A stretch of 64,000 nt of DNA from an uncultured Clostridia bacterium (GTDB lineage: Bacteria > Bacillota > Clostridia > Peptostreptococcales > Anaerovoracaceae): the NCBI GenBank assembly GCA_944383465.1, contig CALWPQ010000003.1:11662-75661 (forward strand). Reading direction: 5' to 3'. The stretch's first letter is position 1. Each line of letters opens with the position of its first letter. The notes beneath the pieces were generated by a model. The model was not told where the DNA came from. It worked only from the letters and a program-made list of their open reading frames with translations, and did not search any database. Of this stretch, positions 9,450-41,151 are shown one piece after another. The translations under genes and the position numbers were made by a program.

Positions 9450-10928
9450 ATGATTAAGTATAAGAGCACAAGAGGAAGCGAAAGAAGGCTCAGCGCGGCG
9501 AGCGCGATTATAGCGGGCATAGCCGAGGACAAGGGCCTTTATGTACCGGAGTCGGTGCCTGCGCTGCCTATGGACATAGAAGATATGCAGAAAATGAATT
9601 ATAAGGAAATAGCATACACCATTATCAGATCGTTTTTTGACGATTATACGGATGAGGAAATGAAGACCTGCGTAGACGGCGCGTATGACGGTAAATTTGA
9701 AGCAGATGATGTGGTGCCGATTGTAAAGGCCGGGGACGCGTATTTTCTTGAGCTCTATCACGGCAGAACAGCGGCATTCAAGGATATGGCGCTTTCGATA
9801 CTGCCATACCTTCTCACAACAGCTGTAAAGAAGGAAAATGAAGAGGCTAAAATCTGTATACTGACAGCGACTTCGGGTGATACGGGAAAGGCCGCGCTTG
9901 AAGGCTTCGCCGATGTTCCGGGTACAGAAATAATCGTTTTCTTCCCTGACAAGGGTGTGAGCGAGGTGCAGAAGCGCCAGATGGTGAGTCAGGAGGGAGC
10001 GAACACGCATGTATTCGCAATCAACGGCAATTTCGACGATGCGCAGACGGGCGTAAAGAAGATATTTAATGATGATGCCTTTGCAGAAAAACTCGCGGAA
10101 GCGGGCTGCAGGCTTTCGTCTGCAAACTCGATAAACATTGGCAGACTCATTCCGCAGGTGGCGTATTATGTATATGGTTACGCCAAGCTTGCCGAGCGCG
10201 GAGCAATAAAGACGGGAGATCCGATAAATGTCGTGGTTCCGACAGGTAATTTTGGAAACATTCTTGCGGCGTATTACGCGAAGCAGATGGGTGTGCCTAT
10301 CGACAAACTCATCTGTGCATCAAATAAAAACAAAGTGCTCACAGATTTTATAAATACCGGAGTTTATAATATCGACAGAGAATTCTATCTCACCAACTCG
10401 CCTTCGATGGACATTCTCATTTCCAGCAATCTTGAGAGACTTCTCTATCATCTCGCAGGAAACGACGGCGACAAGGTAAAGGAGCTTATGGACGCTCTCG
10501 ACAGCAAAAAATCGTACGCTATTGATGAGAAGATAAAATCGGGAATGAAGGATTTTTACGGCGGATTCTGTGATGTCGAAGAGACAAACGCCGCTATCGG
10601 CAGAATGTTCAGCGAAAACGGATATCTTATGGACACGCATACGGCGGTAGCATACAAAGTGTATGAAGATTATAAAAAAGAAACGGGCGATACCAAGCCG
10701 ACGCTCATAGCTTCCACAGCCAGCGCATATAAATTTGCCGAGAGCGTGTGCGAGGCTATAGGACTTCCAAAGCAGGAAAACGGTTTTGCCGCAGTAAGTG
10801 CGCTTGCGGAAAAGACGGGCGTACGCGTGCCGGCGGGGCTCAAAGACCTGGAGAAGAAAGAAATTCGCCACAAGAGCGTAATCGATATAGCGGATATGCC
10901 AAGTGCAGTATATGATGCCGTGAGATAA
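9450..10928 (+). CDS. thrC: Threonine synthase (long form)
   Basis: MIKYKSTRG start and PLP-lysine context TAAFKDMALS. The length of about 490 aa is typical of the long ThrC class. Confidence 0.9.
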   Translation: MIKYKSTRGSERRLSAASAIIAGIAEDKGLYVPESVPALPMDIEDMQKMNYKEIAYTIIRSFFDDYTDEEMKTCVDGAYDGKFEADDVVPIVKAGDAYFLELYHGRTAAFKDMALSILPYLLTTAVKKENEEAKICILTATSGDTGKAALEGFADVPGTEIIVFFPDKGVSEVQKRQMVSQEGANTHVFAINGNFDDAQTGVKKIFNDDAFAEKLAEAGCRLSSANSINIGRLIPQVAYYVYGYAKLAERGAIKTGDPINVVVPTGNFGNILAAYYAKQMGVPIDKLICASNKNKVLTDFINTGVYNIDREFYLTNSPSMDILISSNLERLLYHLAGNDGDKVKELMDALDSKKSYAIDEKIKSGMKDFYGGFCDVEETNAAIGRMFSENGYLMDTHTAVAYKVYEDYKKETGDTKPTLIASTASAYKFAESVCEAIGLPKQENGFAAVSALAEKTGVRVPAGLKDLEKKEIRHKSVIDIADMPSAVYDAVR

Positions 10929-13199: not shown

Positions 13200-13706
13200 A
13201 TGAAAAATGTAATACTTATAGGAATGCCCGGAACGGGAAAGAGTACGGTGGGAGTTATTCTCGCAAAGCGTATAGGATATGATTTTTTGGATGAGGATAT
13301 TGCGATAACTCTTAAGGACGGCAGACAGCTTTCGGAGATAATAGAGCAGGAAGGTATAGACCGGTTTCTTGAAATAGAAGGAGAAGTCGGACTTAGCATA
13401 GAGGCCGAAAAAACTGTGATTGCAACAGGAGGCAGCGCTGTATTTTCTGACGCTGCGATGCGCCATTTTAAGGAAAACGGTATTTGCGTATGGCTCGAAA
13501 CGCCGATAGCGGTGCTCGAAGAACGCCTCATAAATGGTTCGCGCGAGGAGCGGGGAGTGGCTGCGCCTGCGGAGATGACGCTGTCAGATATCTACGCCCT
13601 GAGAGAGCCGCTTTATAAGAAGTACGCGGACATTCGTATAGTGTGTGATTGTGATGCGGACGGCGTAGCTCGCAAAATAAAAGAGAAGCTTAAAGGCCAG
13701 CTTTAG
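13200..13706 (+). CDS. aroK: Shikimate kinase
   Basis: MKNVILIGMPGTGKSTVG Walker A, followed by a DxD and GGS(A)V arrangement. The ATG at 13200 lies 11 nt after ACAGGAG. Confidence 0.9.
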   Translation: MKNVILIGMPGTGKSTVGVILAKRIGYDFLDEDIAITLKDGRQLSEIIEQEGIDRFLEIEGEVGLSIEAEKTVIATGGSAVFSDAAMRHFKENGICVWLETPIAVLEERLINGSREERGVAAPAEMTLSDIYALREPLYKKYADIRIVCDCDADGVARKIKEKLKGQL

Positions 13707-33701: not shown

Positions 33702-33765
33702 AAATGTGCGCGCAAAATTTCAAGTTAAAAATAAAATCAGAAGCGAAAACGGAAGCGATAAGTAT

Positions 33766-34854
33766 ATGAAAATACTGAAAAACAGCATTTTAAGTATAGC
33801 ATTTTTCACTTTGGCTTTTTATTTAGCCGAAGTGCTCAGGCGGCATACGGGGGATGAAAATAATTCATCCCTCATATTCATAGTGGCGATAGTTTTAGTT
33901 GCACGCTTTACGGACGGATATTGGTATGGTATTGCGGCATCGGCTTTGAGCGTGTTTGTTGTAAACTATTCATTTATGTATCCTTTTTCTCATTTTACGA
34001 TGAGAGTGGAGGGTTATCCTGTAGTTGCAATAAGCTTTTTTGCGGCCTCGGTTACAGTATCTGCTGTTACTACGAGAATGCGCAAAGAGACGGCGCAGAA
34101 CGAAAGACTTTACAAAGAGCAGGCAAGGATAAAGCTGGAAGTCGAAAAAGGGATGATGAGGGAAAATCTTCTTAGAGCAATTTCACATGATTTGCGTACG
34201 CCTCTGACGGGCATAATCGGGGCGGGATCGGTAATATATGAAAATCATGATACGCTCACGGTAGAGGAAACGGAGCATCTGGCTGAGAATATAATAACAG
34301 ATGCACAGTGGCTTATAAATATGGTGGAAAATCTGCTCTCGGTAACGCGTACTACTGAATACGGAGCAAAGCTGAACAGGACAAATGAAATATTTGAGGA
34401 AATAGTAGCAATGCCAGTGCAAAAAGTTAAAGCGAGATATCCTGACTGTAAAATTTTCGTTGAAGTACCCGAAGAAATAATGCTCGTACCGATGGACGGG
34501 CTTCTGATACGTCAGGTGCTGCTTAATCTTCTTGAAAATGCGGTGCAGCATTCCGGTGACAGAGAAAATATAAGAGTGAAACTTTACAGAGACGGCGATA
34601 TGGCTGTATGCGAGGTAAGAGATCACGGCAAAGGTTTAAGCTGTGAAAATATAGACAAGTTGATAGAAGATGTCGTTATGAATAAGGATTCAGTATCGGA
34701 CGCGACTCGCGGAATGGGACTCGGACTTTCCGTGTGCAAGAGTATTATTAAAGCGCATGGCGGATTTTTGGAGGCTGAAAACGCAGAGGACGGCGGTGCG
34801 GTATTCAAATTTGGTCTTAAAATGGAGGAAATACCGGATTATGAGCAGCAGTAA
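33766..34854 (+). CDS. KdpD-like sensor histidine kinase lacking the N-terminal KdpD/Usp sensor half
   Basis: A membrane domain (DUF4118-like) followed by H-box AISHDLRTPLTGI and HATPase motifs GMGLGLSVCK. The start is uncertain (track GTG at 33706, ATG at 33766). Confidence 0.8.
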   Translation: MKILKNSILSIAFFTLAFYLAEVLRRHTGDENNSSLIFIVAIVLVARFTDGYWYGIAASALSVFVVNYSFMYPFSHFTMRVEGYPVVAISFFAASVTVSAVTTRMRKETAQNERLYKEQARIKLEVEKGMMRENLLRAISHDLRTPLTGIIGAGSVIYENHDTLTVEETEHLAENIITDAQWLINMVENLLSVTRTTEYGAKLNRTNEIFEEIVAMPVQKVKARYPDCKIFVEVPEEIMLVPMDGLLIRQVLLNLLENAVQHSGDRENIRVKLYRDGDMAVCEVRDHGKGLSCENIDKLIEDVVMNKDSVSDATRGMGLGLSVCKSIIKAHGGFLEAENAEDGGAVFKFGLKMEEIPDYEQQ

Positions 34855-35554
34855 TTATAACAAGAGAACTATACTCGTGATAGAGGATGATAAATCTATA
34901 AGCAGCTTTATATGTACAGCTCTTCAAAGCAGCGGTTATACAGTGCTGACTGCGGCAGACGGCGTGCAGGCAAGACAGATGTTTGCTTCGCACGGGCCAG
35001 AGCTGATACTTCTCGATCTTGGTCTTCCTGATATTGACGGGGTGGAAATAATAAAGGGGGTGCGCGAGTGGAGCAGTGTTCCGATAATAGTTGTTTCTGC
35101 ACGCGGTCGTGAAACAGACAAGGTAGAGGCACTCGATTTCGGAGCTGATGATTATATTACTAAGCCGTTTGGGATTTCGGAGCTGACGGCGCGCATCAGA
35201 ACGGCTCTGAGGCATGCGGACAGAGCCTCAGGTTCAGGCGCGCCGGCCGATGACATTGTAACTGTCGGAGACCTCACAATAGATATCGGAAAAAGACGCG
35301 TAACGCTCGGTGAAAACGAAGTCAGGTTTACAGCCATCGAATACAAGATTGTGTCACTGCTCGCAAAGAATGTGGGCAGAGTGCTCACATATGATTATAT
35401 TATCAAGGAAATCTGGGGGCCATACGCTTCGAGCGACAATCAGATACTGCGCGTAAATATGGCAAACATACGGCGAAAACTCGAGGAAAACCCCGCCGAG
35501 CCGCGCTATATAGTGACGGAGCTTGGCGTTGGATACAGAATGATGGAGAAATAG
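34841..35554 (+). CDS. kdpE: KdpE-like OmpR-family response regulator
   Basis: ILVIEDDKSI...LILLDLGLPDIDG...IIVVSARGRETDKVEALDFGADDYITKPFG and winged helix LTAIEYKIVSLL...GVGYRM. The ATG at 34841 overlaps the kinase stop. Confidence 0.85.
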   Translation: MSSSNYNKRTILVIEDDKSISSFICTALQSSGYTVLTAADGVQARQMFASHGPELILLDLGLPDIDGVEIIKGVREWSSVPIIVVSARGRETDKVEALDFGADDYITKPFGISELTARIRTALRHADRASGSGAPADDIVTVGDLTIDIGKRRVTLGENEVRFTAIEYKIVSLLAKNVGRVLTYDYIIKEIWGPYASSDNQILRVNMANIRRKLEENPAEPRYIVTELGVGYRMMEK

Positions 35555-35681
35555 TAAAGTAAAAGAAAAGGCAGTCCGGCAAAGACGGCATCTTGGACAC
35601 TCAACATTCTGCACTTTGGGTTTTTAGGGAAATTTCTTTGTAAGTTAGATTTTTAGCTGTTTAAGATAATAAAAAGTCTCA

Positions 35682-35713
35682 TTGGGGCACCTGCAATAGA
35701 GCAGGTGCCCCAA
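35682..35713. terminator. 13-bp perfect hairpin at the left edge of the islet
   Basis: TTGGGGCACCTGC-AATAGA-GCAGGTGCCCCAA. T-rich sequence follows on both strands, so it could terminate kdpE or a former leftward islet transcript. Confidence 0.5.
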
Positions 35714-35784
35714 GCGTGTTTTATGGGACAGATGCGACAGAGTAAATTGTGGCGAAAGCTAATATATTTATAGAGGACACTATT

Positions 35785-36010
35785 ATGAAATCATTATTTG
35801 AACAAATGAGTGACACGTACCGCAAAGAAAACGGTTATCTTGCCGTCATTGACAAACAAGTAGAGGATATGTTTCTTCTGCTTGTAAAAAATATCAGAAA
35901 GTGATGGTATCAACGAACAATTTAAAACGGGAACTCAAATGGAATGGGTTGCTCGGATAAATAACATCCGCAGCAGGGTCATAGAAATTGTAAACATCAA
36001 ATCGTATACT
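35785..36010 (+). pseudogene. tnpV: TnpV-like (Tn4451-family accessory protein) remnant with internal deletion and frameshift
   Basis: MKSLFEQMSDTYRKENGYL...IDKQVEDMF runs to a stop at 35902. The +1 frame then continues ...INEQFKTGTQMEWVARINNIRSRVIEIVN. This matches the remembered TnpV consensus (MKSLFEQMGGTY...EQLKAENQMEWV.RMNNIR), but the central roughly 45 aa are missing. Confidence 0.7.
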
Positions 36011-36021
36011 GACTTATTTTA

Positions 36022-36030
36022 TGATATAAT
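36022..36030 (+). promoter_or_regulatory. Extended -10 promoter (TGaTATAAT) inside the islet, reading toward the helicase gene
   Basis: TG at 36022-36023 and TATAAT at 36025-36030. It lies about 200 nt upstream of the helicase ATG. Confidence 0.4.
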
Positions 36031-36097
36031 GAAATAAAAATAACTTACCATTTTAGATTTGTGAATCCTTTAGCGTAAGCTGATGTGTAGGTTTAAA

Positions 36098-36185
36098 ATG
36101 GATAAAGAGCAAAAATATGCGTGCGCAAAATGGACAGACAATGGAAATTCCAATTAGATGAAGTGAATAACTGGATTAAATCCTG
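36098..36185 (+). pseudogene. Excisionase-type (HTH_17/Xis-like) DNA-binding gene remnant
   Basis: MDKEQKY... runs into a stop. A shifted frame then ends ...KMDRQWKFQLDEVNNWIKS*, the typical C-terminal tail of excisionase-family HTH proteins. The HTH core is absent. Confidence 0.5.
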
Positions 36186-36202
36186 AGCTTCCGCTGACTA
36201 AT
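36186..36202 (+). repeat. Left copy of the direct repeat bracketing the helicase ORF (AGCTT-CC-GCTGACTAAT)
   Basis: The 11-nt exact core CGCTGACTAAT (36192-36202) recurs at 39552-39562, and both copies are preceded by AGCTT. Confidence 0.7.
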
Positions 36203-36227
36203 ATTATTTTAAAAGAAAGGCATACAT

Positions 36228-39200
36228 ATGGTATTGTTTTCAAAACTCTTTAAAAAGAAAGATTCGGTAGCGAAGATTGTCACGAACAATATGTCATTTG
36301 AGAGTCCTGAGTGTCAAAGTTTGTGGGACTTAAAGGTTTATATGGATGCCATATTGTCACAAAATCGCTATATTGCAAAAAGTGAATATCGTACAAAGTT
36401 GCTTGACGGAAAGAAAACGGTTGAGTATTTTGGCGTGCTTCAAAACAGTAGATTGTTAGATGCTTTCTGCAAAAATAACGGTCTTTCACTCTTTGGTGTC
36501 GAAGAAACATTAAAAACATACATAAACTTTGAAACACTTGTTGACGAGCATAATGAGTCTTTTATTCAGCGTGAGATGACTGAGGAACAACATTATTTAG
36601 ATAATATACTCCGTGAAGTTGATCCACAAATAAAATTGGACGAAGATCAACGTCGTGTTATTCTGACAGATGAAGACTATTGCCTTGTTATTGCCGGTGC
36701 CGGTGCAGGCAAAACCACTACTGTTGCGGCAAAAGTTAAATATTTAGTCGAGAAAAAAGGAATTGAGCCTTCTCAAATTCTTGTTTTGTCTTTTACGAAT
36801 AAGGCTGTTCAAGAACTTCGTGATAAACTTAATAGAGATTTAGCAATAGATTGTCCTATTGCCACATTTCATTCAACCGGCAATGCTATATTGAGAAAGC
36901 AGTCGCCGGAAAAGCTCAATATTGTTGACTCTTCAAAACTATATTTTGTTTTGCAGGATTATTTCAAAAGTTCTATATTGAAGAATGAAAGCCTTGTAAA
37001 CAACTTGATTCTGTTTTTTGCTTCGTACTTTGATGCTCCGTATGAGGGGGAAGAGCTTAATAGTTTCTTCAATAAAATCGCAAAATCGAATTTTACCACA
37101 ATGCGAAGTGACCTCAACGAGTTTAAACAACAAGTTATTGATATTCGTACAAAAAAATCAATTACAATTCAAAGTGAGGTAATGCGTTCCCGTCAAGAGG
37201 TGGAAATTGCAAATTTCTTGTATTTAAATAATATCGACTATGAATATGAGCCGATTTATAAATATGATATCCTCTTTTCAAAAAAGCCATATACTCCCGA
37301 CTTTATTATCCGGCAGGGTGATAAGGTTGCCTATATTGAACATTTTGGTATTACGCAAGACGGTAAAAACGACCGTTTTAGTTATGATCAGCTTGAAGCA
37401 TACAAAAAGGCTATAAATGATAAAATCAATCTGCACAGGAAACACGGTACAAAACTCATCTATACCTTTTCGCAGTATTCTGACCGAAGAACTCTTATAG
37501 AGCATTTACAGGAAGAATTAGAGAATAACGGTTTTGAGTTACATCATCGATCAAATAAAGAGGTGATGGAAAAACTCGTATCTACAGAAGAAAATCGTTA
37601 TATAAAAAAACTTGTCAACCTGATTTGCCGCTTTATTACAAACTTCAAAACGAATGGTTTCACGACGGAGGAGTTTAGCCGCATGTACCATTCTACTCAA
37701 AATGTACGGACAAGACTATTCTTGGATATTTGTAACGATTGCTACTTGGAATATGAGCGTTATCTAAAGGAAAACAATGCCGTTGACTTTGAGGATATGA
37801 TAAATGAATCAGCACGGGTGCTCCGAGAAGTCAAGGAAATGAAAAAGAAACTTGATTTCAAGTATATTATCGTAGATGAGTATCAAGATATTTCCCGGCA
37901 AAGATTTGACTTAGTAACAGCCTTGTCGGAAGTGACCGACGCTAAGATAATTGCAGTCGGTGACGATTGGCAATCCATTTATGCGTTTAGTGGTTCCGAT
38001 ATAACACTCTTTACAAAATTTGAAGAAAAAATGGGATATGCAAAACTTTTAAAAATCGTAAAGACATATCGCAACTCACAAGAAGTAATTGATATTGCAG
38101 GAAACTTTATTCAGAAAAACGAGACACAGATTTCAAAAGAATTAAAATCCACAAAAAGCATCGTTGATCCTGTTATTATTTACACCTACGACGGTAGTCC
38201 CAAAAAACTAAATGCCGACAATAAAAGTGGTGCAAATTACGCTATTGCACACGCCGTAGAAGTCGCTCTTGAGCAAATTATTGAATTTAATAAACAAGAA
38301 GGTAAATCATCCGAAAATTCTTCTATTCTATTGCTCGGTAGATTTGGATTTGACGGCGATAAGTTAGAAAAATCGGGCTTGTTTGAATACATTAGTAGAG
38401 GAAGTAAACTCAAAAGCGTAAAATATCCAAAACTTAATATTACATTTATGACTGCCCACGCTTCAAAAGGTTTAGGATACGATAATGTTATAGTTGTCAA
38501 CGGTCGAAACGAAACATACGGATTCCCGTCCAAGATTGAAGACGATCCTGTTCTTGCTTTTGTCATCAAGGGAGATCGCTCTATTGATTATGCCGAAGAA
38601 CGACGCTTGTTTTATGTTGCAATGACAAGAACGAAAAATCGTGTTTATTTTATTGCGCCGGAACAAAATCCATCTGAATTTCTTCTGGAAATAAAGCGTG
38701 ACTATAAAAATGTTGTCCTTCGTGGAAATTGGAACGAGGAACCGCCGCAAGATAATATCGCAAAGAAAACTTGCCCTATATGCGGTTATCCTATGCAATT
38801 CCGTTATAAAAACGCTTATGGATTACGGTTGTTTATTTGCACTAACGAGCCGGAAGTCTGCGGTTTTATGACCAATGAATATAAAGCCGGAAAACTTTCC
38901 ATACTGAAATGCGATCAGTGCAGGGACGGATATCTTATTGTTAAACCAGGAAAAGAAAACGATTATTTTCTTGGATGCACTAATTATAAAAAAGATGGAA
39001 CTGGTTGCGGGCGTTTCATTACACCTAAATATTATTATGAAATGTTTAGCCTCGAACCGGATTCTGTACCGGAAAAAGAATCTACATATAAAAGAATTAA
39101 AGCACCGGCACAAATTCAGACTATAAAGGAACAACCGCAGTGCGAAGAAAACAAGAGTATAAAGAAAGCGACAGTTAAAGCGGTGATATTTGAAGGATCT

Positions 39201-39539
39201 GATTTAAACGATATTGTTTATACTGTTTTGCAATGCCTTTCTCACATCAGCGAAAAAAGGTATTATGGTATAAACATTTTAGCGGATGTGCTTCGTGGGG
39301 CAAATAGTAAGCGTATTGCAGATGCAGAATTGGACAAATTGCCGGAGTATGGAAAGTTGAAAAAAGTACATCGTTATGATTTAATCATAATTATAGAATG
39401 GTTAATCGAGAACCATTTTATATTAAAGACGAAACATCCTAAATACCCTGTACTTCATCCTACGTATGATGGTATGCATTATGCCGAAACTATAACATCG
39501 AGCAAACTTCAAAAACTTTTTGAAAGATTAAATTCTTAA
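36228..39539 (+). CDS. HelD (helicase IV)/UvrD-type SF1 helicase with inserted Vsr/PD-(D/E)XK-like module, two topoisomerase-type Zn ribbons and C-terminal RecQ-type winged helix
   Basis: - HelD-like N-terminus: HNESFIQREM...YLDNI.
- Helicase motifs: Walker A AGAGAGKTT (aa 156-164), DEYQD (aa 550-554), GDDWQSIY, TAHASKGLGYDNVIV, YVAMTRTKNRVY.
- Insert, aa about 315-375: RQEVEIANFLYLNNIDYEYE...YTPDFII...AYIEHFG.
- Zn ribbons: CPIC...CTNEPEVC and CDQC...CTNYKKDGTGC.
- C-terminus: YGINILADVLRGANSKRI...LIIIIEWLIENHFI. Confidence 0.85.
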   Translation: MVLFSKLFKKKDSVAKIVTNNMSFESPECQSLWDLKVYMDAILSQNRYIAKSEYRTKLLDGKKTVEYFGVLQNSRLLDAFCKNNGLSLFGVEETLKTYINFETLVDEHNESFIQREMTEEQHYLDNILREVDPQIKLDEDQRRVILTDEDYCLVIAGAGAGKTTTVAAKVKYLVEKKGIEPSQILVLSFTNKAVQELRDKLNRDLAIDCPIATFHSTGNAILRKQSPEKLNIVDSSKLYFVLQDYFKSSILKNESLVNNLILFFASYFDAPYEGEELNSFFNKIAKSNFTTMRSDLNEFKQQVIDIRTKKSITIQSEVMRSRQEVEIANFLYLNNIDYEYEPIYKYDILFSKKPYTPDFIIRQGDKVAYIEHFGITQDGKNDRFSYDQLEAYKKAINDKINLHRKHGTKLIYTFSQYSDRRTLIEHLQEELENNGFELHHRSNKEVMEKLVSTEENRYIKKLVNLICRFITNFKTNGFTTEEFSRMYHSTQNVRTRLFLDICNDCYLEYERYLKENNAVDFEDMINESARVLREVKEMKKKLDFKYIIVDEYQDISRQRFDLVTALSEVTDAKIIAVGDDWQSIYAFSGSDITLFTKFEEKMGYAKLLKIVKTYRNSQEVIDIAGNFIQKNETQISKELKSTKSIVDPVIIYTYDGSPKKLNADNKSGANYAIAHAVEVALEQIIEFNKQEGKSSENSSILLLGRFGFDGDKLEKSGLFEYISRGSKLKSVKYPKLNITFMTAHASKGLGYDNVIVVNGRNETYGFPSKIEDDPVLAFVIKGDRSIDYAEERRLFYVAMTRTKNRVYFIAPEQNPSEFLLEIKRDYKNVVLRGNWNEEPPQDNIAKKTCPICGYPMQFRYKNAYGLRLFICTNEPEVCGFMTNEYKAGKLSILKCDQCRDGYLIVKPGKENDYFLGCTNYKKDGTGCGRFITPKYYYEMFSLEPDSVPEKESTYKRIKAPAQIQTIKEQPQCEENKSIKKATVKAVIFEGSDLNDIVYTVLQCLSHISEKRYYGINILADVLRGANSKRIADAELDKLPEYGKLKKVHRYDLIIIIEWLIENHFILKTKHPKYPVLHPTYDGMHYAETITSSKLQKLFERLNS

Positions 39540-39540
39540 T

Positions 39541-39562
39541 AGCTTATGCTGCGCTGACTAAT
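39541..39562 (+). repeat. Right copy of the direct repeat bracketing the helicase ORF (AGCTT-ATGCTGC-GCTGACTAAT)
   Basis: It starts 2 nt after the helicase stop codon and shares AGCTT plus the exact 11-mer CGCTGACTAAT with 36186-36202. Confidence 0.7.
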
Positions 39563-39721
39563 TATAAAGCAGCCGTTTCGGAATTTGTGCGGCAGTTATA
39601 CAAAGATAAAATGCCAAAACCGCAATCGATAAAAGAGTTTTGGAAACTACTTAAAGCACTTTATAAAGTCCATAAAAGATTTAAGACGTATGCTAAGTAT
39701 GTATCGTCAGCACTTAATCTG

Positions 39722-39758
39722 CAAAGAGAAAGCCCGCTCCGACAGCGGTCGGGCGGGC
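39722..39758 (-). terminator. Intrinsic terminator of the minus-strand SNF transporter gene
   Basis: GC-rich hairpin GCCCGC(T)CCGAC-AGCG-GTCGGGCGGGC, followed on the minus strand by TTTCTCTTT. Confidence 0.65.
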
Positions 39759-39783
39759 GCAAGGACGAAAAAACGGTTAATAT

Positions 39784-41151
39784 CTAAAAGAACTTATCAT
39801 AGAGTCCAAATGCGAATATAAACAGTACGATCAGAGGAAGCACGTATGTGACGTACGGGCGCATCCAATTCTGTATTTTAAGACCTTTGCCGGTGTTTGC
39901 TTCTGCTTGGAAATTATCCCAGCCCCAGCCGTATTTGCTGACGCAGAACATCAAATATACGAGAGAGCCGAGCGGAAGCAGGATATTACTTACGAGGAAA
40001 TCCTCAAAATCCAGCACTGAGCCGCCGAATATCGAAAAGCCGTCCCAGGCGAGCACGTTGTATCCGAGCACGCAAGGAAGCGAAAGCAGGATGATGAGTA
40101 CAAGATTTACTGTACTTGATTTTTTCCTGCTCCAGCCTGTGAGTTCTGCAACGCAGGAAATTATATTTTCAAACACAGCGAGAATTGTTGAAAACGCTGC
40201 GAATGACATGAATATGAAAAAGAGGCTTCCCCATAGCCTGCCGAGAGGAATGTGATTAAATATATTAGGAAGCGTTATAAAAATAAGACTCGGGCCTGAT
40301 GTCTGATCTACATTAAACGTAAAACAGGCCGGAAAAATGATGAGTCCTGATGTTATAGCGACAAAAGTATCGAGAAGCGCGATGTTTAAGGATTCTCCGA
40401 GAAGGCTTCTTTTTTTATCAATATAACTGCCGAATATGGCCATAGCGCCGATGCCGAGACTGAGAGTAAAAAAGGCTTGATTCATAGCGCCGGTAATTGT
40501 CGCAATAATGCCTGCTTCTTTCATTCTTTCGAAATCAGGAATGAGATAGAATTTGAGTCCTTCTTTTGCGCCGTCAAGTGTAAAACTGTTTACGGCGAGC
40601 AGAAGCATAATAAAAAGAAGTGAAATCATCATCACCTTTGTTATGCGTTCGATGCCGTTTTGGAGACCGCGCGAGCATATGAAAATACCAATAATTACGA
40701 CAAAGATCATCCACCCGCCCATAACGAGAGGATCTTCGAGCATATATGTGAAAGTTTCGGCAATATCAACAGAGTTAAGTCCATTAAATTTGCCTGTCGC
40801 TGTCAAATAAAAATAGTGCAGCATCCAGCCGGCAACTGTTGTATAGAACATCATAAGCAGGTAACATCCTGCGAGCGTTACGTACCCGTGAATATGCCAT
40901 TTTTGACCCGGTTTTTCGAGCACATTGTATGCTTTTACCGGACTCCTCTGACTCGCGCGGCCAACTGCAAATTCCATAGTCATAATCGGAAGTCCGAGAA
41001 TTATAAGGAATATAATATAAAACAGAACAAAGGCACCGCCGCCGCCCTGTCCTGCCATATATGGGAATTTCCAAACATTACCGATTCCGATAGCACATCC
41101 TGCGGAAATTAGGATAAAGCCTAAACGGGATTTAAGTTTTTCTCTTTCCAT
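39784..41151 (-). CDS. Sodium-dependent transporter, SNF (neurotransmitter:Na+ symporter) family
   Basis: GNVWKFPY signature near the N-terminus and about 11-12 TM segments. Confidence 0.9.
   Translation of the reverse strand: MEREKLKSRLGFILISAGCAIGIGNVWKFPYMAGQGGGGAFVLFYIIFLIILGLPIMTMEFAVGRASQRSPVKAYNVLEKPGQKWHIHGYVTLAGCYLLMMFYTTVAGWMLHYFYLTATGKFNGLNSVDIAETFTYMLEDPLVMGGWMIFVVIIGIFICSRGLQNGIERITKVMMISLLFIMLLLAVNSFTLDGAKEGLKFYLIPDFERMKEAGIIATITGAMNQAFFTLSLGIGAMAIFGSYIDKKRSLLGESLNIALLDTFVAITSGLIIFPACFTFNVDQTSGPSLIFITLPNIFNHIPLGRLWGSLFFIFMSFAAFSTILAVFENIISCVAELTGWSRKKSSTVNLVLIILLSLPCVLGYNVLAWDGFSIFGGSVLDFEDFLVSNILLPLGSLVYLMFCVSKYGWGWDNFQAEANTGKGLKIQNWMRPYVTYVLPLIVLFIFAFGLYDKFF

What the first reader, a model, noticed from the sequence alone, without database searches (positions are those of the whole stretch)
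35555..39760. AT-rich islet in which the mobile-element genes have decayed while the cargo helicase stays intact
**Composition.** Base composition and codon usage change abruptly between the kdpE stop (35554) and the SNF gene terminator (about 39722). Spot G+C counts on single 60-nt lines are 21/60 and 17/60 inside, against 29/60 and 36/60 outside.

**Decayed genes.** The tnpV homologue has lost its middle and is frameshifted. The excisionase-like gene retains only its N- and C-terminal stubs. No recombinase gene remains.

**Intact cargo.** The 3.3-kb helicase ORF is uninterrupted and has an extended -10 promoter upstream at 36022-36030. This asymmetry suggests the element is immobilised and the helicase is kept by selection. 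A 13-bp perfect hairpin (35682-35713) marks the left edge.
Basis: partly seen in the sequence, partly recalled or inferred. Interest (0 to 1): 0.6.

Follow-up and report, generated by a model that had tools for sequence, protein, structure and literature searches.

The report
Decayed mobile element keeping one helicase
A 4.1-kb AT-rich insert in a gut Clostridia chromosome is the dead stump of a Tn4451-type mobilizable element; every gene on it has broken except one large helicase-nuclease, an outcome seen repeatedly in other gut bacteria, which suggests that this uncharacterised enzyme benefits its hosts.

Summary
Window ~35586-39727 has G+C 0.356, against 0.451 +/- 0.012 for equal-sized stretches elsewhere in the window. 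It is missing from a sister species, where the response-regulator and SNF genes lie 134 bp apart. It is present in all 10 same-species metagenome contigs examined.

The islet is collinear with intact Tn4451-family integrative mobilizable elements (TnpV, HTH_17, helicase, primase-like gene, then ParB plus a TnpX recombinase or Mob_Pre plus TnpW). Here at least 8 lesions have destroyed TnpV, HTH_17 and the primase-like gene. No large serine recombinase was found anywhere in the assembly.

The 1103-aa helicase, its ribosome-binding site and a conserved extended -10 promoter carry no lesion. dN/dS against relatives is about 0.05.

- The "excisionase" is the helicase's usual upstream partner, so part of the cargo module has also decayed.
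- One strain lineage carries a frameshifted helicase, so selection is not absolute.

Stranded HTH_17-helicase cassettes beside mobility-gene fragments recur in at least 8 other genomes. The helicase's function is unproven; I favour a conflict or defence role.

This is an ordinary kind of remnant carrying an undescribed helicase family, which this scan has already flagged on other DNA.

The parts
35579..35585 (.). Left copy of GCAAAGA, at the inferred left junction. It may be the crossover or target repeat, and it contains the GA dinucleotide used by TnpX-type recombinases.
   Evidence: Read directly from the sequence. The anchor 'cagtccg' is shared with the G002 empty site. About 2% chance expectation given a +/-10 bp uncertainty in the junction (my estimate), so this is only suggestive.
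35586..39720 (+). Acquired low-GC islet (~4.14 kb), the remnant of a Tn4451-family integrative mobilizable element.
   Evidence: G+C is 0.356 against 0.451. The empty site in sister species G002 leaves 134 bp between the response-regulator and SNF genes. The islet is present in all 10 same-species contigs at 99.3-100% identity.
35682..35713 (+). Perfect 13-bp hairpin followed by GCGTGTTTTA, terminator-like. It probably now ends the response-regulator transcript.
   Evidence: One search lists it as terminator-like. In strain L104 all 3 SNPs fall in the 6-nt loop and none in the stem. In the empty-site genome the only intergenic hairpin corresponds to the one now to the right of the islet.
35785..35995 (+). 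tnpV pseudogene. It keeps 19 N-terminal codons, then has an internal deletion of ~130 nt, a 2-nt frameshift near 35888, and a missing 3' end.
   Evidence: Pfam PF14198 at 4.4e-13 on the joined frames. blastn and tblastn to intact TnpV genes of L021, L035 and L029. Alignment.
36022..36030 (+). Extended -10 promoter TGATATAAT, the native promoter of the HTH_17-helicase operon.
   Evidence: Read from the sequence. The same TGnTATAAT/TATACT element lies 17 nt after TTGCAT/TTGCAA upstream of HTH_17 in 13 or more relatives.
36060..36201 (+). HTH_17 (excisionase-family DNA-binding protein) pseudogene. A 54-nt deletion has removed the ribosome-binding site, the start codon and 13 codons. There is also a 2-nt deletion at 36126/36127 and a premature TGA at 36185-36187.
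   Evidence: Alignments with intact 60-aa genes of L017, L020, L021, L035 and L029. The intact homologue P0122 scores 5e-15 on PF12728, 68 bits on TIGR01764, and 77.5 bits on NF047737 MAD1 against a cut-off of 80.
36228..39539 (+). Intact 1103-aa helicase. It combines a helical N-terminal domain, a UvrD/helicase IV-like SF1 motor with an inserted PD-(D/E)xK nuclease-fold domain (residues ~320-440), two Cys4 zinc ribbons (849-927) and a C-terminal RQC winged helix.
   Evidence: - Pfam PF00580 at 2e-52 and RQC at 1e-12.
- NF008276 helicase IV scores 301 bits, below its 543 cut-off.
- All family-invariant residues are kept.
- The insert domain model has pLDDT 80 and matches Bax1, Hjc and the R2 endonuclease.
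- The insert profile hits T7 endonuclease I at E = 0.03.
- dN/dS is 0.04-0.07.
37151..37157 (+). A7 run. In one strain lineage it is A6, which splits the helicase into 317-aa and 785-aa ORFs.
   Evidence: L107, L109 and L110 are three independent assemblies.
39561..39587 (+). Last trace of the primase-like partner gene ('NYKAAVSEF', matching residues 83-91 of the 350-aa protein).
   Evidence: blastn gives 27 nt at 89% identity to L035 and L022, E = 0.008. tblastn. This match is weak.
39588..39720 (.). Right tail of unknown origin. It has no homologue in 80 related loci or in 400 genomes of the order.
39721..39727 (.). Right copy of GCAAAGA, at the inferred right junction.
   Evidence: Read from the sequence.
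39728..39757 (-). Host hairpin, the terminator of the SNF gene. It is homologous to the single intergenic hairpin of the empty site.

Best explanation
**Origin.** A Tn4451-family integrative mobilizable element inserted into the spacer between an OmpR-type response-regulator gene and a convergent SNF-transporter gene. This happened after the species split from its sister species and before its present strains diverged. The element carried a TnpX-type large serine recombinase, TnpV, and either a Mob_Pre/TnpW or a ParB module. Its accessory cassette was promoter, HTH_17, helicase-nuclease, primase-like protein.

**Decay.** Deletions then removed the recombination and transfer genes and most of the primase-like gene, and broke tnpV and the HTH_17 gene. 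No TnpX-type recombinase was found in the assembly, so the 4.14-kb stump is fixed in place.

**What survives.** Only the helicase gene, its ribosome-binding site and the cassette's extended -10 promoter are undamaged. I infer that purifying selection kept them intact. This means the helicase acts on its own and benefits the host.

**Most likely function (inferred).** It is a nuclease-helicase that recognises branched or foreign DNA, in other words a conflict or defence-type enzyme. It is not the element's replication helicase.

**Consequences of losing the HTH_17 partner (inferred).** The helicase would now be expressed without its usual regulator.

**Hairpin (inferred).** The hairpin at 35682-35713, carried in with the element, now serves as the terminator of the upstream two-component operon.

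**Shown:** acquisition, ancestry, the lesion map, absence of a recombinase, and sequence constraint on the helicase. **Inferred:** expression, benefit to the host, and biochemical role.
For: **Acquired**
- Sister species G002 has an empty site.
- The helicase was not found in the 5 congeneric species or in 119 of 120 sampled genera of the family.
- G+C lies about 8 sd below the window.
- In 64 of 68 loci the helicase is poorer in G+C than its flanks.

**Ancestry**
- L021 carries TnpV, HTH_17, helicase, primase-like, ParB and a TnpX-type recombinase (Resolvase + Recombinase + Zn_ribbon_recom + DUF4368).
- L035 carries TnpV, HTH_17, helicase, primase-like, Mob_Pre and TnpW.
- The window is collinear with both, at 84-86% nucleotide identity over 36058-39547.

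**Immobile**
- No PF07508 match in the assembly.
- tblastn with the mobility proteins (TnpX, Mob_Pre, TnpW, ParB and a tyrosine-integrase fragment) found nothing within +/-10 kb.

**Selection on the helicase**
- At least 8 lesions lie in the remnants and none in the 3312-nt ORF. Even counting only the two 2-nt deletions in 443 nt, about 15 would be expected in the ORF.
- dN/dS is 0.04-0.07 at dS 0.8-1.4 against relatives. Stranded-versus-stranded pairs have a median of 0.06.
- Within the species there are 13 synonymous and 11 non-synonymous SNPs, where about 77% non-synonymous would be expected under neutrality.

**Recurrence**
- Intact HTH_17-helicase stranded among housekeeping genes, with fragments of Mob_Pre, primase, DUF6809 or integrase beside it, occurs in L017, L020, L023, L024, L026, L028, L029 and L041.

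**Not a replication module**
- The primase-like partner has VVSSYED where DnaG has VEGYxD, and the DxD region does not align.
- The host has its own PcrA and AddA.

**Conflict context**
- Recurrent neighbours of more distant homologues include Type IV restriction enzymes, a TOTE AEP-helicase-PLD protein, AAA_13, Fic and PDC-S72, HNH, RecQ/DpdF-like helicases and DUF262 proteins.
Against: - One strain lineage (3 of the 8 assemblies covering that site) has a frameshifted helicase. The gene is therefore dispensable, at least in some backgrounds.
- Within-species pN/pS is about 0.25, which is only moderate constraint.
- Both usual partners (HTH_17 and the primase-like gene) are dead here, so the original multi-gene function may be lost.
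- The related loci were found by searching with the helicase, so 'helicase intact' is partly a result of how they were collected.
- No match to a validated defence family goes beyond the generic UvrD domain; the PADLOC best hits are GajB and RTasHel.
- The nuclease-fold insert has Phe where the catalytic Lys of T7 endonuclease I aligns, so nuclease activity is uncertain.
- The exact junctions are uncertain by about +/-15 bp, because the sister species' spacer has diverged.
Confidence: 0.72

Rival explanations
1. Neutral snapshot. The helicase is intact only because it has not yet been hit. The flanking damage came from a few large deletion events, and the gene is now starting to decay with no benefit to the host.
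For: A frameshift allele in an A7 run occurs in three assemblies of one lineage. Eleven of 24 within-species SNPs are non-synonymous. Both partner genes are dead.
Against: - The flanks carry small lesions as well as large ones: two 2-nt deletions and a nonsense codon in under 450 nt. The 3312-nt ORF carries none.
- dN/dS is about 0.05 over dS of about 1.
- The same outcome recurs in at least 8 other genomes.
- The islet is kept in all 10 same-species contigs.
Confidence: 0.13
2. The helicase is the element's own DNA-processing enzyme, a PcrA-like motor for relaxase-initiated rolling-circle transfer or replication working with a primase. It is a core mobility gene, not cargo. Its survival reflects residual selfish function or trans-use by other elements.
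For: - It sits next to a DnaG-like gene and, in L035, a Mob_Pre relaxase.
- UvrD, PcrA and Rep are its closest solved relatives.
- Topoisomerase III and RecQ-like neighbours occur in some loci.
Against: - The primase-like partner lacks the Toprim catalytic Glu, and its DxD region does not align.
- Most loci with the helicase have no relaxase, primase or recombinase within 10 kb.
- An alternative ~190-aa partner of unknown fold replaces the primase-like gene in at least 15 loci.
- Breakpoints cluster at the borders of the cassette, as expected for an exchangeable accessory module.
Confidence: 0.12
3. The segment is ancestral to the genus and was precisely lost in G002. The low G+C reflects local gene properties and not acquisition.
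For: Only one empty-site genome is available, and it is 59% complete. The other congeners have rearranged synteny at this point.
Against: - No homologue in any of the 5 congeners or in 119 of 120 sampled genera of the family.
- 82-91% identical cassettes occur in unrelated Clostridia, inside elements that carry recombinases.
- TnpV and primase remnants flank the helicase.
Confidence: 0.03

Closest known systems
Tn4451/Tn4453-family integrative mobilizable elements of Clostridia (TnpX large serine recombinase, TnpV, TnpY, TnpZ = Mob_Pre relaxase, TnpW; cargo catP)
   Same: Intact relatives of the islet carry TnpV, a TnpX-type recombinase with DUF4368, Mob_Pre and TnpW. The window keeps a TnpV pseudogene. 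The possible flanking repeat contains GA, the dinucleotide at which TnpX recombines (2-bp crossover; PMC5704250).
   Different: The window has no recombinase, relaxase or TnpW. The cargo is a helicase cassette and not a resistance gene. The att sites could not be defined.
Remnants and CIMEs: decayed ICEs or IMEs that keep cargo modules (Guedon et al. 2017, PMC5704250; Faecalibacterium mobilome 2025, PMC12084326)
   Same: Integration and transfer genes are lost, an adaptive or cargo module is retained, and the stump is isolated in the chromosome.
   Different: It is not known whether attL and attR survive, which is needed for cis-mobilisation. Here even part of the cargo cassette has decayed, leaving a single gene.
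E. coli DNA helicase IV (HelD) and the UvrD/PcrA/Rep SF1A helicases
   Same: Complete SF1A motif set. Best family and structure matches.
   Different: It scores below the helicase IV cut-off (301 against 543 bits). It carries a nuclease-fold insert, two zinc ribbons and an RQC domain that those enzymes lack.
Single-protein SF1 helicase-nuclease anti-phage systems (Hhe, Nhi) and Gabija GajB
   Same: An SF1 motor is combined with a restriction-endonuclease-fold domain. The gene is mobile, AT-rich and patchily distributed, and relatives sit in defence-island-like neighbourhoods.
   Different: The motor subfamily and domain order differ: the nuclease is inserted inside domain 1 and is not terminal. 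No GajA partner is present. No specific PADLOC model matched beyond the shared UvrD core. Defence activity is untested.
Phage T7 endonuclease I, archaeal Hjc and Bax1 (structure-specific PD-(D/E)xK nucleases)
   Same: The insert domain aligns to the T7 endonuclease I catalytic core (E...YTPDF...vE) at E = 0.03. Its model matches Bax1 and Hjc at Foldseek probability 0.75-0.98.
   Different: The position of the catalytic Lys is Phe (E371-H372-F373). The matches are of borderline significance.

Membership tests
Tn4451-family integrative mobilizable element | TnpX-type large serine recombinase (Resolvase + Recombinase + zinc ribbon + DUF4368) | tested here: not met
   Absent from the window and from the whole assembly (PF07508). 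Present in the collinear relative L021.
Tn4451-family integrative mobilizable element | TnpV gene | tested here: met
   Present only as a pseudogene: PF14198 at 4.4e-13 on the joined frames, covering profile positions 52-107 of 111.
Tn4451-family integrative mobilizable element | MobV-type relaxase (TnpZ, Mob_Pre) and TnpW | tested here: not met
   No tblastn hit in the window. Present in relative L035.
Tn4451-family integrative mobilizable element | Flanking 2-bp (GA) crossover repeats at attL and attR | tested here: inconclusive
   GCAAAGA occurs at both inferred junctions (35579-35585 and 39721-39727). The junctions are known only to about +/-15 bp, and chance is not excluded.
Decayed ICE/IME remnant (CIME in the strict sense) | Loss of integration and transfer genes from a formerly complete element | tested here: met
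   Collinear with intact elements. The recombinase, relaxase and ParB genes are absent, and tnpV, HTH_17 and the primase-like gene are broken.
Decayed ICE/IME remnant (CIME in the strict sense) | Retention of functional attL and attR | not testable with these tools
   The terminal ~190 bp on the left and ~130 bp on the right have no homologue in 80 related loci or 400 genomes.
UvrD/Rep SF1A helicase | PF00580 above its cut-off, with Walker A, DExQD and later motifs intact | tested here: met
   179 bits against a cut-off of 23. GAGAGKTT 157-164, VDEYQD 549-554 and the other invariant motifs are kept.
DNA helicase IV (HelD, NF008276) | Score above the equivalog cut-off | tested here: not met
   301.2 bits against a cut-off of 543.
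Gabija (GajB) | Adjacent GajA (OLD-family ATPase-Toprim nuclease) | tested here: not met
   The islet has no other intact ORF. The GajB models match only through the shared UvrD core.
PD-(D/E)xK nuclease (T7 endonuclease I / Hjc-like) | Restriction-endonuclease fold with the catalytic E, D and ExK residues | tested here: inconclusive
   The fold matches Bax1 and Hjc (E = 0.01-0.1). E324/E326, D358 and E371 are invariant, but Phe373 aligns with the Lys of T7 endonuclease I.
Excisionase-family DNA-binding protein (TIGR01764 / PF12728) | Domain model above its cut-off | tested here: met
   The intact homologue P0122 scores 68.4 bits against 28.8. The window copy is a pseudogene. A role as a recombination directionality factor was not tested and is unlikely, because TnpX-type recombinases need none (PMC5704250).

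The most novel reading that the evidence does not exclude
The helicase-nuclease would be a previously undescribed stand-alone anti-phage or anti-plasmid enzyme of gut Clostridia. It spreads as cargo of Tn4451-type elements and is repeatedly domesticated: hosts keep it while the element around it rots. In this species it would work even without its HTH regulator and its dead-primase partner.
Probability: 0.3. Interest if true: 0.6.

Novelty: new member of a known kind. Interest (0 to 1): 0.38.

Why it matters
Decayed integrative elements that keep a useful cargo gene are a recognised route by which gut bacteria gain permanent functions, so the islet itself is ordinary.

Its value is as one well-resolved case: an empty site, a full lesion map, population data and intact reference elements. 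It belongs to a recurrent pattern in which a large, uncharacterised helicase with a junction-nuclease-like insert outlives its mobile carrier in many Clostridia.

That recurrence is indirect evidence that the enzyme benefits its hosts. It gives a concrete candidate for defence or DNA-processing assays, and the naturally occurring A7-to-A6 frameshift strains could serve as controls.

Tried and rejected
- **DNA search against plasmids.** blastn of the whole islet found no match.
- **Origin of the islet ends.** Searches for the left 205 nt and right 181 nt in the own genome and in 400 genomes of the order gave only chance-level hits. A 21-nt exact match on contig C37 lies inside a 657-aa coding gene and was dismissed as chance.
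- **Right tail as primase sequence.** Only a 9-residue, 27-nt trace was found.
- **Pfam on the short excisionase-like pieces.** Nothing matched because they are too short. The question was settled by DNA alignment to intact genes.
- **Exact junctions.** A global alignment of the joined flanks to the G002 spacer was too diverged to fix them.
- **Singleton-substitution test for relaxed selection.** The window's ratio of non-synonymous to synonymous singletons (0.94) falls within the range of other tips. The method is biased by saturation, so the result is uninformative.
- **Full-length AlphaFold model.** It was poor (pLDDT 64.7, pTM 0.38) and recovered only UvrD, PcrA and Rep. The insert domain was therefore modelled separately.
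- **Phage association.** The only near-full-length 'phage' record (MT839452.1) is an unverified 4.3-kb scaffold whose flanks look bacterial.
- **11-bp direct repeat CGCTGACTAAT bracketing the ORF** (36192-36202 and 39552-39562, noted by another reader). About 2 such pairs are expected by chance in 4 kb. The left copy is simply the conserved 3' end of the HTH_17 gene. It was rejected as a recombination site.
- **Literature.** Three searches found no description of this helicase family.

Full report
**1. The observation**

Window 35586-39727 has G+C 0.356. Equal-sized stretches elsewhere in the window average 0.451 (sd 0.012, minimum 0.420; n = 1032). Third-position G+C of the large ORF is 0.322, against 0.41-0.53 for 23 other genes.

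Flanking genes:
- Left flank: the end of a cdaA-ybbR-glmM-glmS cluster, followed by a DUF4118 histidine kinase and an OmpR-type response regulator that ends at 35554.
- Right flank: a convergent SNF-family transporter (39784-41151, minus strand).

ORF 36228-39539 is open for 1103 codons. The 13-bp perfect hairpin at 35682-35713 and the extended -10 TGATATAAT at 36022-36030 are both present as described.

**2. The segment was acquired**

- In the closest other species held (G002, same genus, ~80% nucleotide identity in the flanking genes), the response-regulator and SNF genes are 134 bp apart. That spacer has a single hairpin, which corresponds to the one now to the right of the islet at 39728-39757.
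- The other three congeners with data have different genes after the regulator. The site is a synteny breakpoint in the genus.
- No homologue of the helicase was found in the five other species of the genus (59-96% complete), or in 119 of 120 sampled genera of the family.
- Ten contigs from independent metagenome assemblies of the same species (99.3-100% identity) all carry the islet at the same place with the same lesions.

Insertion therefore came after the split from G002's lineage and before the strains diversified.

The anchors shared with G002 place the junctions near 35585 and 39721. A 7-bp GCAAAGA occurs at both. It contains GA, the crossover dinucleotide of TnpX-type recombinases (PMC5704250). 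The spacer is too diverged to fix the junctions better than about +/-15 bp.

**3. What the islet derives from**

The helicase has thousands of relatives at 76-91% identity in gut metagenomes. It also has relatives in 308 stretches of genome contigs drawn from a one-genome-per-species collection, mostly Oscillospirales and Lachnospiraceae.

Two relatives sit in apparently complete elements:
- L021 (an Acutalibacteraceae MAG): TnpV, a 60-aa HTH_17 protein, the helicase, a DnaG-like protein, a ParB-like protein, and a 565-aa large serine recombinase with Resolvase, Recombinase, Zn_ribbon_recom and DUF4368 domains.
- L035: the same first four genes, then a Mob_Pre relaxase and TnpW.

This is the gene set of the Tn4451 family of integrative mobilizable elements, with the helicase cassette where Tn4451 carries catP.

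The window is collinear with these elements from the tnpV start to just past the helicase stop.

**4. Lesion map **

- **tnpV** (PF14198 at 4.4e-13 on the joined frames):
  - 19 N-terminal codons remain, followed by an internal deletion of ~130 nt;
  - a 2-nt deletion near 35888;
  - a deletion of ~100 nt removes the last codons, the stop and the downstream hairpin.
- **HTH_17 gene:**
  - a 54-nt deletion removes the ribosome-binding site, the GTG start and 13 codons;
  - a 2-nt deletion at 36126/36127;
  - a TGA at 36185-36187.
- **Primase-like gene:** only 27 nt (39561-39587) can still be recognised.
- **Recombinase, relaxase, ParB:** absent.

PF07508 has no match anywhere in the 98.9%-complete assembly, so no TnpX-type enzyme was found that could act in trans.

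By contrast, the extended -10 element, the helicase's ribosome-binding site and all 3312 nt of the ORF are undamaged.

**5. Is the helicase kept by selection?**

Evidence for:
- The two 2-nt deletions alone give a rate that predicts about 15 frameshifts in the ORF. None is seen.
- dN/dS against 22 relatives is 0.04-0.07 at dS 0.8-1.4.
- Pairs of stranded copies have a median dN/dS of 0.06, against 0.046 for the two element-borne copies.
- All columns invariant across 31 family members are kept.
- Within the species the ORF has 13 synonymous and 11 non-synonymous SNPs, fewer non-synonymous than the ~77% expected under neutrality.

Evidence against:
- Three independent assemblies of one lineage share a 1-bp deletion in the A7 run at 37151-37157, which splits the ORF into 317 and 785 codons. 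Two of them cover the response-regulator gene, and both carry a 16-bp deletion there.
- Selection is therefore real but not absolute. The gene is dispensable in at least one background.

**6. The pattern recurs**

Among loci whose helicase is 82% or more identical and which have long flanks, three carry a TnpX-type recombinase beside the helicase and look largely complete (L021, L035, L042).

In L017, L020, L023, L024, L026, L028, L029 and L041 an intact HTH_17-helicase pair lies among housekeeping genes. Examples are after carB, between spoIVA and nrdR, and after ruvCAB. Beside the pair lie fragments of primase, Mob_Pre, DUF6809 or an integrase, or nothing at all.

Breakpoints relative to L021 cluster just upstream of the cassette promoter (9675-9692) and at the helicase stop (13278-13316). 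This is the behaviour expected of an exchangeable accessory module.

These loci were found by searching with the helicase, so its intactness in them is partly due to how they were collected. The decay of their neighbours is not.

**7. Correction about the 'excisionase'**

- The small HTH_17 gene lies immediately upstream of the helicase and travels with it in 15 or more loci, whether or not a recombinase is present.
- It passes the excisionase-family domain model. It also nearly reaches the cut-off of the MAD1 helix-turn-helix model of a methylation-associated defence system (77.5 against 80 bits).
- TnpX-type recombinases need no directionality factor (PMC5704250).

I therefore read it as the cassette's regulator. 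In this species, two of the three cassette genes have decayed and only the enzyme remains.

**8. What the helicase is**

- It has a complete UvrD/Rep-type SF1A motor (PF00580 at 2e-52). Its closest named family is helicase IV, but it scores below that cut-off (301 against 543 bits).
- Residues ~320-440 are inserted within the motor and form a separate domain. The domain model has pLDDT 80 and pTM 0.76.
- The best structural matches of this domain are Bax1, archaeal Hjc and the R2 endonuclease (E = 0.01-0.1).
- Its sequence profile aligns to the catalytic core of T7 endonuclease I (E = 0.03). The acidic residues are invariant (E324/326, D358, E371), but Phe aligns where the Lys sits.
- Two Cys4 ribbons and an RQC winged helix follow.
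- The host has its own PcrA and AddA.

The DnaG-like partner in intact elements has VVSSYED where DnaG has VEGYxD, and its DxD region does not align. It therefore looks catalytically dead, which argues against a replication module.

In at least 15 loci an unrelated ~190-aa protein with no Pfam match takes the partner's place.

Neighbours of more distant homologues repeatedly include conflict-system genes:
- Type IV methyl-directed restriction enzymes;
- a TOTE AEP-helicase-PLD protein;
- AAA_13, Fic/PDC-S72 and HNH proteins;
- RecQ/DpdF-like helicases;
- on plasmids, DUF262 proteins.

I therefore favour a conflict or defence-type nuclease-helicase. This rests on association only: no validated defence model matches beyond the UvrD core.

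**9. The hairpin**

It lies ~100 bp inside the left junction and 72 bp upstream of tnpV, and it scores as terminator-like. In strain L104 three SNPs fall in its 6-nt loop and none in its 26 stem positions.

The original shared terminator now lies on the far side of the islet. This hairpin probably terminates the two-component operon today. That is an inference.

**10. Limits**

- The junctions are not resolved to the base.
- The origin of the terminal ~190 bp (left) and ~130 bp (right) is unknown.
- The full-length structure model is poor.
- No paper describing this helicase family was found. Earlier notes of this scan had already flagged the same family on other DNA.

**11. Verdict**

This is a genuine and well-delimited remnant of a Tn4451-family mobilizable element, immobilised by loss of its recombinase. 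Only the helicase-nuclease survives.

Two changes are needed: part of the cargo cassette has also decayed, and one strain lineage is losing the helicase too.

As a kind of object it is ordinary. The interest lies in the recurrent survival of an undescribed enzyme family.

Noticed in passing
window 34925-34940 (response-regulator gene), in loci L107 and L110: The strain lineage with the frameshifted helicase also carries a 16-bp deletion inside the OmpR-type response-regulator gene. In those strains the two-component system next to the islet appears to be broken as well.
   Followed up: partly
L024:13321-13905, L070:13228-13797, L057:13277-13894 and at least 12 other related loci: A conserved ~190-aa protein with no Pfam match sits directly after the helicase in at least 15 of 80 loci. 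It is an alternative partner to the primase-like gene, and helicases with this partner have a different C-terminal end.
   Followed up: partly
L021:13328-14377: The DnaG-like partner keeps the zinc ribbon and the DNAG_N domain. It has VVSSYED where DnaG has VEGYxD, and its DxD region does not align, so it looks like a catalytically dead primase.
   Followed up: partly
L079, L081, L084, L085, L094, L097 (downstream of the helicase): A RecQ-family helicase follows the helicase in several Lachnospiraceae. It matches PADLOC DpdF and PsyrT models at E values down to 1e-202. Both proteins carry RQC domains.
   Followed up: no
L146 (GenBank MT839452.1, 4278 bp): A record labelled 'Bacteriophage sp.' from a human faecal virome consists of this helicase plus flanks that resemble a Waltera chromosome (L055). 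It looks like bacterial DNA and not a phage.
   Followed up: partly
L016 (G002:C26) 884-1250: The sister species carries a separate frameshifted TnpV remnant between housekeeping-type genes, another decayed trace of the same element family.
   Followed up: no
window 33706-35554: The histidine kinase has only DUF4118, HisKA and HATPase domains. It and the response regulator follow glmS directly, with no kdpFABC in the window. The longest ORFs of the two genes overlap by ~98 nt, so the regulator probably starts at a later ATG; related contigs call it at 237 aa.
   Followed up: no
window 36192-36202 and 39552-39562: An 11-bp direct repeat, CGCTGACTAAT, brackets the helicase ORF. The left copy is the conserved 3' end of the HTH_17 gene. 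The right copy lies at the deletion junction in the primase remnant. About two such pairs are expected by chance in 4 kb.
   Followed up: yes
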